DNA of 64,000 nt. It comes from a virus. Taxonomy: Duplodnaviria > Heunggongvirae > Uroviricota > Caudoviricetes. The notes beneath the pieces are model-generated. The model saw only the letters and a list, made by a program, of their open reading frames with translations, was not told the DNA's origin and made no database searches. A program made the position numbers and the translations under genes. Positions 24,195-26,939 of this stretch are shown in pieces. Position 1 is the stretch's first letter. Each line of letters starts with the position of its first letter. The stretch is taken from IMG/VR virus record IMGVR_UViG_2877948078_000003; one strand, 5' to 3'.

Positions 24195-24230
24195 GAAAAC
24201 GCGCGAGGTCGCCGCCCCGTAACGGTCTGG
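24195..24230. other. cos: cos site (cosN cohesive-end core at 24206-24217)
   Basis: Reverse complement of 24181-24217 reads GGGCGGCGACCTCGCGCGTTTTCACTATTTATGAGAT, near-identical to the lambda cohesive end GGGCGGCGACCT and adjacent sequence. Confidence 0.85.
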
Positions 24231-24440
24231 ATCACCGGAAAGGACCCGCCAACGACTTTCGCGTGCAGGCATTAAAAATTTTGCAGTTCCATGCCTAGTT
24301 GAAACCTCGATTTCTATAACATCCAATTTTGTAAATTTAGATATAGCTCAACTTTTCCCAATGTTTTCAATTGTATAAAAACAATTGGCGTTACGCTATA
24401 ACACTATACTTAGAATAAGTAAAGATTTTAAGGAGTTTTA

Positions 24441-25508
24441 ATGAGTCAACATCAATATTATCCACAGCTGAAATGGAAGCCTGCTGAATATGAATCTCTG
24501 ATGCTTTTAGATCAAACTACGCTCTCTGGTTTTACTCCGATCATTACCATTCCAGACATAGACTGGGATTATGAAAACGAATGCTACAAGAAGAGTTTGA
24601 GTTCTTACTTATCTGACTTCGGTATTAACCTTGCGGCATCCTGGAAAGCCAATCGTCCTGTTTTGCTGGATGTTAAATATTTAGATAAACATGGTTCGAG
24701 CCGCCATCATCCTCTAGATATGTGTATCCAAGATGCTAGAGTAAATGGTAAGGAAATTATCCCTGTTGTTTCTCCCGCATATTCAACAAACTATATACAT
24801 GCTGTTCAACGCAACTTAATCAATGGGCTCGCTATATCTATCACCCCCCAGACATGGCACCAATTCACAAGTCTGGTTAACCACTTAAATATTCATCCTA
24901 GTTTAATTGATGTAATCATTGATTTTGGAGATATTCAAAACGCAACTGATAGTTTAAAACAACAAGCATTAAGCATGGTCAACACATTATCAGGCCAAGC
25001 TCCGTGGAGAAACTTGATTTTATCTTCAACCGCATACCCGGCATCACAGGCAGGGATACCGCAACATCAAGTTCATCATATTCCGCGCCATGAATACGAT
25101 CTTTGGATGTACGTAGTACAGAATTTTAGCAATGGAAGAACGCCAAGTTTTAGTGATTATCCCACCGCTAGCTCTACCATTACGAGCGTAGACCCACGCT
25201 TCATGTCTCAGTATGTCTCAGTGAGATATTCGAACGATACCTCATGGATCTTTGTAAAAGGTACCGCAGTTAAAGGAAATGGATGGGGCCAAACTAAAAA
25301 CTTATGTACTACCCTTGTTAGTTCGCCAGAGTATCAAGTCTTTGGCTCCAAATTTAGTTGGGGGGATGATTACATTTACCAAAGATCATTAGGCGCTAAC
25401 AAATCTGGCGGCTCTAAAGAATGGCGTAAAGTTGCACATACGCACCATATTACGTTAGTCGTGAGACAGCTTTATTGGTTGGCGCAGACTCAGCCTGCCA
25501 AGCCTTAA
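24441..25508 (+). CDS. Hypothetical protein, accessory gene 1 of the Rz-cos module
   Basis: 355-aa ORF with AAGGAG SD; AT-rich; opposite strand to the late operon; no recognisable motif. Confidence 0.7.
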   Translation: MSQHQYYPQLKWKPAEYESLMLLDQTTLSGFTPIITIPDIDWDYENECYKKSLSSYLSDFGINLAASWKANRPVLLDVKYLDKHGSSRHHPLDMCIQDARVNGKEIIPVVSPAYSTNYIHAVQRNLINGLAISITPQTWHQFTSLVNHLNIHPSLIDVIIDFGDIQNATDSLKQQALSMVNTLSGQAPWRNLILSSTAYPASQAGIPQHQVHHIPRHEYDLWMYVVQNFSNGRTPSFSDYPTASSTITSVDPRFMSQYVSVRYSNDTSWIFVKGTAVKGNGWGQTKNLCTTLVSSPEYQVFGSKFSWGDDYIYQRSLGANKSGGSKEWRKVAHTHHITLVVRQLYWLAQTQPAKP

Positions 25509-26070
25509 CTTTCCAGCCTACGCGTTTCTTTAAGGCTGTTCTGACTTCAAGCCTGAGATTCGCTATTGGAATATTTTCCGCAATAATATTCCATAACTCA
25601 AATCGGGGCTTGCTTTTGATTCCTTTGGAATAGCCCCATCGTTCAAGTACGTCGATACATTCATCTTTCCAAAGCAATTGAGCGAGCATCAATGTGTCAT
25701 GGTTTCGATTAAGCTTTTCTCCACGCATGTGCTTTATAAGAATGGCGCCTTTTGACCCAACAGAAACCGTTTTAACGCCCCACCAACCTGGGATTAACTT
25801 TAATGCTCCCTCAAGATGTTTCTCAGCTACGACAAGAGTAACCTTGTCCATTACAGAAGAATAATGCTTGATTTGAAGAGGCAAACGCTCCAAAGAGTCA
25901 TATTCACTTTTGAGCTCGTACCCGTGTATAACACCATTTATTACAGCAATGTCTGCTCTACTGGCGCCAAGGGATATGGAAAATTCATCGACCACAAGGC
26001 AGTCTGGATCTAAATGCGATTCTTTCAAAAGCTTATGATGCACCGCGAACCTAACATCTTGATCTTTCAT
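25450..26070 (-). CDS. Hypothetical PD-(D/E)xK-like nuclease-fold protein, accessory gene 2
   Basis: 206-aa ORF with GGAGGGAG SD; motif ..VVDEF..RADIAVINGVIHGYELK..; 3' end overlaps gene 1 by 59 bp. Confidence 0.7.
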   Translation of the reverse strand: MKDQDVRFAVHHKLLKESHLDPDCLVVDEFSISLGASRADIAVINGVIHGYELKSEYDSLERLPLQIKHYSSVMDKVTLVVAEKHLEGALKLIPGWWGVKTVSVGSKGAILIKHMRGEKLNRNHDTLMLAQLLWKDECIDVLERWGYSKGIKSKPRFELWNIIAENIPIANLRLEVRTALKKRVGWKVKAWQAESAPTNKAVSRLT

Positions 26071-26421
26071 GACTTCACCTTACTCCCTCCGTTATTGAAT
26101 TATAGCGCACTGCATTTTACTGCATTTGAGAGATTTGACCACTTCAATCACAAAATGCTTATCTGCAGCAACAAGATTCATAGCCATACGACTATGGTGA
26201 TTACCTTTTGTCTGGAAAACTGACCATTCCACGAAGATCAGATAGGTCTATAGAATCTTGGTTTGTCATAGCGTTCGCCTTACTTTGAGATGAACCTTTG
26301 CTGCATAGGAGATCAGCCCGTCAAGGCTCACCAGCACTAACTGACTACTCAAAGGCTCATTCCAAAGGGTTTGGTTCGACGTGGTTGAGTGCGCTGCGAT
26401 GCGCGGTGAAATACCTGTACA

Positions 26422-26449
26422 AAAATGCCCCGCATCTGCGAGGCATTTT
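26422..26449. terminator. Bidirectional terminator-like hairpin downstream of Rz
   Basis: AAAATGCC..GGCATTTT 8-bp stem with inner CGCA/TGCG pairing; A/T tracts on both sides. Confidence 0.35.
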
Positions 26450-26486
26450 CCTGAAAGTCACGTATTAAATTTCAGTGAAATTAAAA

Positions 26487-26939
26487 TTATTTTAAGCACT
26501 GCGTCCTGATGTACTCCTGCAGGTAGTTGACCTGCGCGGTTATCTTGTCGATTCCACTTCTGAGACGGTAATAATTGAGTTCAGCATCTGCTGTAAGTCC
26601 TGGGCTTTCTCCATCGCCCATGCTGCTGGCTCCGGTCGTTGACTTTGCACAGGTGGCGGCGACTTGCAGGCGCTTACGCCCAGCAGAAACATCAGCACGG
26701 AGACTTTCGATAGTCGCGTTAGCATCAGCAAGCTCCTTTGTGTATCTGGCGTCAAGTTCTGCTACATCACGTTGACGCTTCTGCATGTCAGCGATGATGT
26801 ACCTGGCTTTATCGCGCTGTTCTTTATAGGTAATGGCGTTATCACGGTAATGATTAACAGCCCATGACAGGCAGACGATGATGCAAATAACCAGAGCGGA
26901 GATAATCGCGGCTACTCTTCTCACTGATCTATCCCCCAA
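26487..26939 (-). CDS. Rz: Spanin inner-membrane subunit Rz
   Basis: N-terminal TM segment then coiled-coil; directly downstream of the endolysin. Confidence 0.8.
26540..26725 (-). CDS. Rz1: Spanin outer-membrane lipoprotein Rz1, embedded in Rz
   Basis: +1-frame ORF inside Rz; signal peptide with lipobox LLGVSAC; proline-rich. Confidence 0.7.

What the first reader, a model, noticed from the sequence alone, without database searches (positions are those of the whole stretch)
24230..26490. AT-rich convergent two-gene module between Rz and cos: candidate undescribed defence or exclusion system
Two ORFs of 355 aa (+) and 206 aa (-) sit between the lysis cassette and cos, the position lambda uses for bor. 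They converge and overlap at their 3' ends (25450-25508), each with its own SD. The segment is visibly AT-rich against the flanking structural genes. Upstream of the 355-aa gene is a perfect palindrome CAATTGT-ATAAAA-ACAATTG (24368-24387); upstream of the 206-aa gene is a perfect TATAAT (minus strand, 26099-26104) next to an ATGCAGT direct repeat. The 206-aa protein has a PD-(D/E)xK-like motif (VVDEF..RADIAVINGVIHGYELK). From memory the sizes and pairing resemble the sce7725/sce7726-type cassette, but I cannot verify that.
Basis: partly seen in the sequence, partly recalled or inferred. Interest (0 to 1): 0.8.

Follow-up and report, generated by a model that had tools for sequence, protein, structure and literature searches.

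The report
Gop-less P4-type beta–cII prophage module
The two genes are real and are relatives of two of the three genes of the satellite phage P4 anti-phage system gop-beta-cII, here without gop, so this is a plausible but untested prophage defence module of a known family rather than an undescribed system.

Summary
Two convergent genes, 24441-25508 (+, 355 aa) and 25450-26070 (-, 206 aa), overlap by 59 bp in an AT-rich ~2 kb cargo slot (~24250-26265). The slot lies between cosN (24206-24217) and Rz of an E. coli lambdoid prophage.

The module is not undescribed. The 355-aa protein is a Pfam Beta_protein (8e-56) with a confident TIM-barrel model. The 206-aa protein is an NCBIfam sce7726 / Pfam Phage_P4_cII member (1e-54). 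It has a PD-(D/E)xK nuclease fold and invariant E29, D40, E52 and K54.

Phage P4 carries the same convergent beta/cII pair next to its cos, plus gop. That trio is a validated anti-lambda/P1 system. No gop is present in this window.

In one representative genome from each of 80 species across more than ten phyla, 77 loci have this tail-to-tail pair, 75 of them overlapping, and none has gop. Fourteen loci instead carry PD-lambda-2 B-type genes upstream of beta, seven of them also an A-type gene.

Best reading: a minimal two-gene defence module, with beta as sensor or regulator and the cII-like nuclease as effector. Function and mechanism are inferred, not shown. It is a new variant of a known kind.

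The parts
24206..24217 (-). cosN of the lambdoid prophage. It bounds the module on the beta side.
   Evidence: Exact match to the reverse complement of lambda GGGCGGCGACCT. The small terminase subunit gene follows at 23482-24093 (-).
24250..26265 (.). Variable cargo cassette, about 2.0 kb and AT-rich, holding the two genes and their upstream regions.
   Evidence: Backbone homology with other E. coli prophages stops at about 24249 on the cos side and resumes at 26266 on the Rz side. In other prophages the same slot is empty or holds Rha plus YlcI or KilA-N genes. GC is 37-44%.
24337..24387 (+). Putative beta promoter region. It holds the conserved block TTAGATATAGCTCAAC (24337-24352), a -10-like TATAAA (24374-24379), and the E. 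coli-specific palindrome (24368-24387).
   Evidence: Footprint in an alignment of five genera. The palindrome is at chance level. Promoter function is inferred.
24441..25508 (+). beta-family gene (355 aa), predicted TIM barrel. Proposed sensor or regulator.
25450..25508 (.). 59-bp tail-to-tail overlap of the two coding regions.
   Evidence: An overlap is present in 75 of 77 homologous loci, and it equals 2 modulo 3 in 72 of 77. No stable RNA structure forms here.
25450..26070 (-). cII-like / sce7726-family gene (206 aa). It has a PD-(D/E)xK nuclease domain (about residues 1-116), a helical C-terminal domain (about 126-182) and a disordered tail (190-206). Proposed effector.
26099..26128 (-). 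Putative cII-like promoter or operator. It holds TATAAT (26104-26099) and two ATGCAGT repeats 10 bp apart (26115-26109 and 26125-26119).
   Evidence: Sequence read. The block is largely conserved in five genera. Function is inferred, and the generic scan did not call it.
26421..26449 (.). Bidirectional intrinsic-terminator-like hairpin between Rz and the module. It lies in the phage backbone.
   Evidence: 13-bp stem, -24.1 kcal/mol, z -5.2, followed by UUUUUGU on the minus strand. The segment 26266-26490 is shared with the P22 Rha/Rz spacer.

Best explanation
**What it is.** The segment is a horizontally acquired accessory (cargo) module at the extreme right end of a lambdoid E. coli prophage. 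It is the minimal, gop-less form of the beta-cII gene pair first seen in satellite phage P4.

**Proposed mechanism (inferred).** Each gene is transcribed from its own promoter towards the other. The fast-evolving TIM-barrel protein beta detects or transduces a cue from an infecting phage. The conserved cII-like PD-(D/E)xK nuclease, which also carries a helical, possibly DNA-binding, C-terminal domain, is the effector. It cuts DNA and blocks the superinfecting phage, either directly or by abortive infection.

**What is shown and what is inferred.** Gene structure, family membership, folds, conserved active-site residues, conserved pairing and genomic contexts are shown. The defence function of the two-gene form, the sensor and effector roles, and expression in the lysogen are inferred.
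For: **Homology to a validated system.**
- PADLOC 'beta' and 'cll' models hit the two window proteins. The same models, plus 'gop', hit the P4 proteins at 8e-188, 3e-113 and 5e-70.
- P4 has the same convergent beta (355 aa) / cII layout next to cos.
- gop-beta-cII protects against lambda and P1 (PMC9122126). A phage gene triggers cell death through it (bioRxiv 10.1101/2023.04.06.535777).

**Role of beta in another system.** A beta-family protein is component C of PD-lambda-2. It is required for defence but not for neutralising the toxin (PMC9519451).

**Nuclease features.** The model has the PD-(D/E)xK fold, and E29, D40, E52 and K54 are invariant.

**The pair is a conserved unit.**
- It is convergent in 10 of 10 hand-checked contexts.
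- It is present in 77 of 80 species-representative loci from more than ten phyla. Two of the three misses are contig ends.
- It is present in 39 of 40 IMG/VR loci.
- gop is present in 0 of 80 loci.

**Contexts are typical for defence cargo.**
- The P2 slot between portal and gpA, where old and tin reside (PMC9519451).
- A P4-like satellite.
- Beside CI-like repressors.
- Next to a methylase plus an MvaI/BcnI restriction enzyme.
- Next to HipA, BrxR and an AAA_14 ATPase.
- Next to hok/mok in phage Rac-SA53.

**Evolutionary pattern.** Beta diverges faster than cII in 45 of 45 pairwise comparisons (29% against 47% mean identity), as expected for a sensor.

**Natural knockout.** In E. coli 2013C-3181 an IS3 element splits beta while the cII-like gene stays intact. 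The nuclease is therefore not constitutively lethal without beta.
Against: - No experiment addresses the two-gene form.
- In P4 the only component with demonstrated toxicity is gop (Ghisotti 1990, as cited in PMC9122126), and gop is absent here.
- The requirement for cII in P4 defence is not reported in the papers I read.
- The PD-lambda-2 clone extended only 396 bp past the 3' end of beta. That is too short for a whole cII gene, so beta can work in defence without cII when it has other partners.
- Beta matches no specific enzyme family, so its activity is unknown.
- Promoter assignments rest on conservation only.
- The sensor/effector assignment is an inference from evolutionary rates and domain content.
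Confidence: 0.6

Rival explanations
1. A toxin-antitoxin-like addiction module. It stabilises the prophage or its cargo slot and has no role against other phages. Beta acts as the antitoxin of a toxic cII-like nuclease.
For: The P4 locus is described as toxin-antitoxin-like, with beta neutralising gop. The pair is tightly linked and co-inherited. Toxin-antitoxin genes are frequent neighbours.
Against: In strain 2013C-3181 beta is split by IS3 while the nuclease gene is intact. That is not expected if beta were an essential antitoxin. Convergent, separately promoted genes are unusual for type II toxin-antitoxin operons. The related three-gene systems do protect against phage.
Confidence: 0.15
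2. A restriction-modification-like pair. The TIM-barrel beta modifies DNA or a nucleotide pool to mark self, and the cII-like nuclease cuts unmodified DNA.
Against: DpdA scores no better than hundreds of unrelated TIM barrels. The natural beta knockout with an intact nuclease is viable. In PD-lambda-2 beta works without a complete cII. No cofactor-binding motif was identified.
Confidence: 0.1
3. A phage-regulatory or life-cycle function. The cII-like protein is a DNA-binding regulator or recombination and repair nuclease, as the P4 name 'cII' suggests, used by the prophage itself.
Against: The pair also occurs outside phages, in chromosomal islands and beside restriction-modification or BrxR genes. 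It sits in slots that are empty or hold unrelated cargo in sister prophages, so it is dispensable for the phage. Catalytic residues are strictly conserved.
Confidence: 0.1

Closest known systems
P4 gop-beta-cII (DefenseFinder Rst_gop_beta_cll; PADLOC gop/beta/cll)
   Same: It has a beta homologue of identical length (355 aa, 22% identity) and a cII homologue (27% identity, same catalytic motif). The two genes are convergent and lie next to the cos site of a mobile element. The system is experimentally anti-lambda and anti-P1.
   Different: No gop is present: tblastn and the gop HMM are both negative. The window genes overlap by 59 bp, whereas P4 has a 27-bp gap annotated as a terminator. The window cII-like protein lacks the roughly 60-aa C-terminal extension of P4 cII. 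The host element is a lambdoid prophage, not a satellite.
PD-lambda-2 (Vassallo et al. 2022; HigB-like A, Xre-ImmA/IrrE B, beta-family C)
   Same: The window beta matches PD-Lambda-2_C models better (4e-32) than the P4 beta model does (3.5e-10). In seven representative genomes the convergent cII gene sits behind beta in a locus that also carries PD-lambda-2 A- and B-type genes. PADLOC confirmed the full operon in six of these.
   Different: The window has no A or B gene. PADLOC found nothing in five mechanically called small ORFs in and around the module. The published PD-lambda-2 clone cannot have held a complete cII.
Lambda bor, lambda rexAB and P22 sieB-type lysogen-expressed cargo genes
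   Same: They occupy a variable cargo slot of a lambdoid prophage. Bor occupies the same Rz-cos interval in lambda. In Haemophilus and Acinetobacter prophages the pair sits beside the CI-like repressor, as rexAB does.
   Different: There is no sequence or fold relationship. Bor is a lipoprotein and RexAB is a membrane and sensor pair.
SPO1766 / MmcB-like and type II restriction endonuclease PD-(D/E)xK domains
   Different: No similarity to a solved structure is detectable by sequence. The window protein has an extra helical C-terminal domain and an obligatory beta partner.

Membership tests
NCBIfam NF033832 sce7726 family / Pfam PF26915 Phage_P4_cII | The HMM score is above the curated cutoff over the full length. 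| tested here: met
   184.9 bits against a cutoff of 70, covering residues 1-183 of a 184-position model. PF26915 is precomputed for the identical protein P0001.
PD-(D/E)xK nuclease superfamily | An alpha-beta-beta-beta-alpha-beta core, with an acidic residue in strand 2 and (D/E)xK in strand 3. | tested here: met
PD-(D/E)xK nuclease superfamily | Metal-dependent phosphodiester cleavage. | not testable with these tools
   This needs a biochemical assay.
Pfam PF14350 Beta_protein | The HMM score is above the gathering threshold over the full length. | tested here: met
   190.4 bits against 27, covering residues 6-342 of a 342-position model.
   No relevant NCBIfam hit at E<=10 for the window protein; the only hit listed was ndhI at E 0.11, well below its cutoff. 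No relevant hit for 19 other beta partners, including myxobacterial ones. I could not confirm that such a model is in the library.
P4 gop-beta-cII defence system | A gop gene upstream of beta. | tested here: not met
   tblastn of P4 gop against the whole window gives E>=2.3. The PADLOC gop model found nothing in five mechanically called small ORFs in and around the module. phmmer with the P4 gop protein found gop in 0 of 80 related loci.
P4 gop-beta-cII defence system | Beta and cII homologues, convergent and adjacent. | tested here: met
P4 gop-beta-cII defence system | Protection against phage. | not testable with these tools
   It has been shown only for the three-gene P4 locus (PMC9122126).
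PD-lambda-2 defence system | A HigB-like A gene and an Xre-ImmA/IrrE B gene upstream of the beta-family C gene. | tested here: not met
   No co-directional ORF lies between cos and beta. PADLOC found no A or B match in the module's small ORFs. The C component matches at 4e-32 over residues 141-344.
Type II toxin-antitoxin system | The antitoxin is indispensable while the toxin gene is intact. | tested here: inconclusive
   One natural isolate has beta split by IS3 and an intact cII-like gene. This argues against the feature, but it is a single case. The 262-aa C-terminal fragment of beta might retain function.

The most novel reading that the evidence does not exclude
The tail-to-tail beta-cII pair is the ancient, autonomous core of a defence superfamily that unites two systems now catalogued separately, gop-beta-cII and PD-lambda-2. 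Gop or the HigB/Xre-peptidase pair are optional add-ons to that core.

The fixed-register antisense overlap of the two C-terminal coding regions is striking. Exactly 34 nt separate the invariant His codon of beta from the invariant Arg codon of cII in 67 of 76 loci from more than ten phyla. That overlap may be functional. For example, colliding convergent transcription, or 3' antisense pairing, could set the sensor-to-nuclease ratio and release the nuclease when a phage shuts off host transcription.
Probability: 0.3. Interest if true: 0.7.

Novelty: new variant of a known kind. Interest (0 to 1): 0.5.

Why it matters
**Annotation gap.** Defence annotation tools define gop-beta-cII by three genes and report it only in Proteobacteria (bioRxiv 10.1101/2024.10.26.620412). 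The gop-less pair found here would presumably escape such three-gene definitions. It is present in 126 of 5,426 complete E. coli genomes and in representative genomes from more than ten phyla.

**If the pair works on its own.**
- It would be a compact 2-kb defence system.
- It would point to beta as a reusable sensor that works with three different effectors: the putative membrane protein gop, the Xre-peptidase B, and the cII nuclease.
- It would link two systems whose mechanisms are both unknown.

**A practical entry point.** This locus offers a clean test. It has two genes, clear catalytic residues to mutate, and a natural beta knockout strain.

Tried and rejected
- **Solved structures by sequence.** Searches with single sequences and with profiles found nothing for either protein.
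- **Pfam for the 206-aa protein.** The local copy has no model for it, even at E<=10.
- **Hidden third gene.** Small ORFs within 24174-24326 and 26014-26509, searched for gop or PD-lambda-2 A/B, gave no hits.
- **Palindrome as operator.** Rejected as evidence, because it is at chance level and not conserved.
- **Generic promoter and terminator scan of the module.** It found no more sites than shuffles give.
- **RNA structure at the overlap.** None (z +0.6 and +1.4).
- **Literature.** Searches for sce7726, PF14350 and gop-beta-cII variants returned genome announcements or surveys only, and no mechanistic study. One broad search was uninformative.
- **ECOR42 locus.** I tried to learn whether the original PD-lambda-2 locus has a cII gene. 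Only the clone coordinates were obtainable. Plasmid homologues of component B turned out to be stand-alone HigB/Xre-peptidase pairs.
- **Reverse survey with diverse beta sequences.** A pattern search with the diverse beta alignment failed for lack of conserved stretches. The closer alignment recovered mostly near-identical E. coli prophage copies.
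Full report
**1. The observation**

The window holds a 355-aa ORF at 24441-25508 (+) and a 206-aa ORF at 25450-26070 (-). They converge and share 59 bp. Both have Shine-Dalgarno-like sequences. GC falls to 37-44% across the module, against 54-63% in the neighbouring head and terminase genes.

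The surrounding genes, read on the minus strand, are holin, endolysin and Rz/Rz1 (27767-26487). After the module come the small and large terminase subunits, portal and head genes. An exact lambda-type cosN lies at 24206-24217. The module therefore sits at the extreme right end of a lambdoid prophage chromosome, in the Rz-cos interval where lambda carries bor.

**2. Limits of the cargo and nature of the slot**

I compared the region with 5,426 complete E. coli genomes. Backbone homology ends near 24249 on the cos side and resumes at 26266 on the Rz side. Sister prophages have nothing in the slot, or Rha plus YlcI genes, or a KilA-N gene.

The module with at least 80% coverage is present in 126 genomes. 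RefSeq annotates it there as 'beta family protein' and 'sce7726 family protein'. No closely similar DNA was found for the module itself in the isolated-phage collection; only the Rz-proximal flank matched.

A strong bidirectional terminator-like hairpin lies at 26421-26449 in the backbone between Rz and the module.

**3. What the proteins are**

- *The 355-aa protein.* It is a full-length Pfam Beta_protein (PF14350, 8e-56). It matches PADLOC models PD-Lambda-2_C (4e-32) and 'beta' (3.5e-10).
- *The 206-aa protein.* It is a member of NCBIfam sce7726 (1.3e-54, above cutoff), of PADLOC 'cll' (2e-31) and of Pfam Phage_P4_cII.
- *What the PADLOC names mean.* They refer to satellite phage P4. P4 gop, beta and cII hit those models at 5e-70, 8e-188 and 3e-113.
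- *The P4 layout.* In P4 the order next to cos is gop (+), beta (+, also 355 aa), then cII (-), so beta and cII are convergent there too.
- *Similarity to P4.* The window proteins are 22% and 27% identical to P4 beta and cII.
- *No gop.* Neither tblastn over all 64 kb nor the gop HMM on local small ORFs finds a gop homologue.
- *The 'sce7725' label.* No NCBIfam model hit this beta or 19 other beta partners.

**4. Structures**

Both AlphaFold2 models are confident, with pLDDT 89.6 and 92.1.

**5. The pair elsewhere**

*Hand-checked contexts.* In ten contexts the two genes are always convergent. The contexts are P4, this window, Providencia, two Vibrio lineages, Acinetobacter, an enterobacterial P4-like element, Burkholderia, Haemophilus and Serratia.

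*Systematic scan.* A scan of one genome per species returned 80 loci. They come from Proteobacteria, Myxococcota, Firmicutes, Bacteroidota, candidate phyla radiation groups, Melainabacteria, Elusimicrobiota, Spirochaetes, Chloroflexi, Gemmatimonadota, Omnitrophota and Acidobacteria.
- 77 loci have a Beta_protein gene immediately downstream of cII and convergent with it. Two of the three exceptions are contig ends. None has gop.
- 75 of the 77 pairs overlap, with a median of 47 bp. In 72 the overlap length is 2 modulo 3.
- In 67 of 76 loci exactly 34 nt separate the codon of the invariant His of beta (H336 here) from the codon of the invariant Arg of cII (R183 here). In this window's clade the spacing is 73-74 nt.
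- The two C-terminal coding regions have therefore been locked together in one register since before these phyla exchanged the module.

*Reciprocal check.* 39 of 40 IMG/VR loci found with beta carry the convergent cII.

*Sequenced phages.* The pair also occurs in Escherichia phage Rac-SA53, where it is annotated 'CII phage-like protein' and 'beta' next to hok/mok. It occurs in Gordonia phage DumpsterDude too. cII homologues were also hit in Mycolicibacterium, Myxococcus and Bacillus phages, whose contexts I did not examine.

**6. Link to a second known system**

A Pfam census of flanking genes showed 11 ImmA/IrrE (Peptidase_M78) proteins. Recombinases, Rz, ResIII, BglII and caspase-domain neighbours were also present.

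Eight of ten tested genes directly upstream of beta are PD-lambda-2 component B. Six match over the full length at E about 1e-140, and two match partially at about 1e-78. Six of them are preceded by component A at about 1e-35.

HMMs built from these sequences gave the following count among the 77 loci:

| Upstream of beta | Loci |
|---|---|
| B-type gene (7 of these also have A) | 14 |
| No co-directional ORF, as in this window | 36 |
| Some other mechanically called ORF | 21 |
| Contig end | 6 |

Complete PD-lambda-2 operons therefore often carry the convergent cII as a fourth gene. HigB/Xre-peptidase pairs can also stand alone without beta or cII. The published PD-lambda-2 clone ended 396 bp beyond beta, too short for a whole cII.

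I found no paper in the searchable library that connects the two systems. A 2024 survey treats them separately and reports gop-beta-cII only in Proteobacteria.

**7. Regulation**

I aligned the upstream regions from E. coli, Klebsiella, Edwardsiella, Pectobacterium and Providencia.
- *Upstream of the cII-like gene.* A largely conserved block, AAATRCAGTAAAATRCnGTGCGCTATAAT, ends 29 nt before the start codon.
- *Upstream of beta.* TTAGATnTAGCTCAA is conserved, and GTATAAAA is kept in three of the five genera. The palindrome arms are not conserved. Palindromes of that size arise in 21% of shuffles.
- *Other scans.* The generic promoter scan is uninformative, and there is no RNA hairpin at the overlap.
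- *Inference.* The two genes are separate, converging transcription units without an intervening terminator. Their transcripts probably read into each other.

**8. How it most likely works**

*What experiments have shown for relatives.*
- Gop is toxic without beta (Ghisotti 1990, as cited in PMC9122126).
- The P4 trio protects against lambda and P1.
- A phage accessory gene triggers cell death through the P4 trio.
- PD-lambda-2 C, the beta-family component, is needed for defence but not for neutralising the toxin.

*What this work adds.*
- Beta is the constant partner of three different candidate effectors.
- Beta evolves faster than cII in 45 of 45 comparisons.
- The cII-like nuclease keeps its catalytic residues.
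- A natural isolate tolerates an IS3-split beta with an intact nuclease gene.

*The reading I favour.* Beta is the sensor or activator and the cII-like nuclease is the effector of a minimal prophage-borne defence module. I put the family assignment at about 0.95, the defence role of the two-gene form at about 0.6, and the specific division of labour at about 0.35.

*Rivals.* These are an addiction module, a restriction-modification-like pair, and a phage-internal regulatory or repair function. Each is listed with its evidence in the rival explanations.

**9. Verdict**

The system is not undescribed. It is a gop-less variant of a known family. The wider result is of moderate interest and directly testable: a conserved, overlapping beta-cII core shared by two catalogued systems.

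Noticed in passing
window 28520-64000 (remnant of the interrupted gene at 28044-28520): A Mu-like prophage is inserted into the lambdoid prophage and runs to the end of the window. It carries a repressor-like gene (28757-29362, -), a ner-like gene (29478-29726), a transposase (29728-31818) and a MuB-like gene (31890-32822), with TTGATAC repeats at its left end. It appears to interrupt the SASA-family esterase gene upstream of the holin. It is 96.8% identical to the 'inserted Mu-like phage' annotated in Stx1a phage LC727895.
   Followed up: partly
L106 (E. coli 2013C-3181, NZ_CP027312.1 1199358-1204297) and L107 (CUVET17-972): These are natural insertion variants of the same module. In L106 an IS3 element splits beta after about 97 codons while the cII-like gene is intact. 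In L107 an IS2 element sits about 160 bp upstream of beta, in its putative promoter region.
   Followed up: partly
77 loci among L026-L105, compared with window 25446-25524: The spacing between the invariant His codon of beta and the invariant Arg codon of cII is exactly 34 nt in 67 of 76 loci from many phyla. The overlap length is 2 modulo 3 in 72 of 77. This window's clade has a 39-40-nt longer spacer (73-74 nt).
   Followed up: yes
L065, L075, L084, L086, L094, L099 (candidate phyla radiation, Omnitrophota, Bacteroidota): Complete PD-lambda-2 A-B-C operons are followed by a convergent, overlapping cII gene. This fourth gene is not part of the published three-gene definition. L098 and L104 have a PDC-M63A-like gene in place of A.
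   Followed up: partly
L112 (Gordonia phage DumpsterDude, MT024859.1 28666-29280): The cII homologue is not annotated. A short gene 32 is called on the opposite strand instead. Gene 33 is, by position, orientation and length, the likely beta partner (not checked by HMM), overlapping the cII match by 71 bp.
   Followed up: partly
window 26421-26449: A strong bidirectional terminator-like hairpin (13-bp stem, -24 kcal/mol, z -5.2) lies just downstream of Rz. It sits inside a 225-bp backbone segment that is 86.5% identical to the P22 Rha/Rz spacer.
   Followed up: yes
window 26540-26755 (-): An Rz1-like lipoprotein ORF with an LLGVSAC lipobox is embedded out of frame inside Rz, as in lambda.
   Followed up: no
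window 24171-24249 compared with other E. coli prophages: Most E. coli copies of the module share the sequence from about 24171 rightwards but have a different small terminase gene to the left. The cos-module-Rz block is therefore mosaic with respect to the packaging genes.
   Followed up: partly
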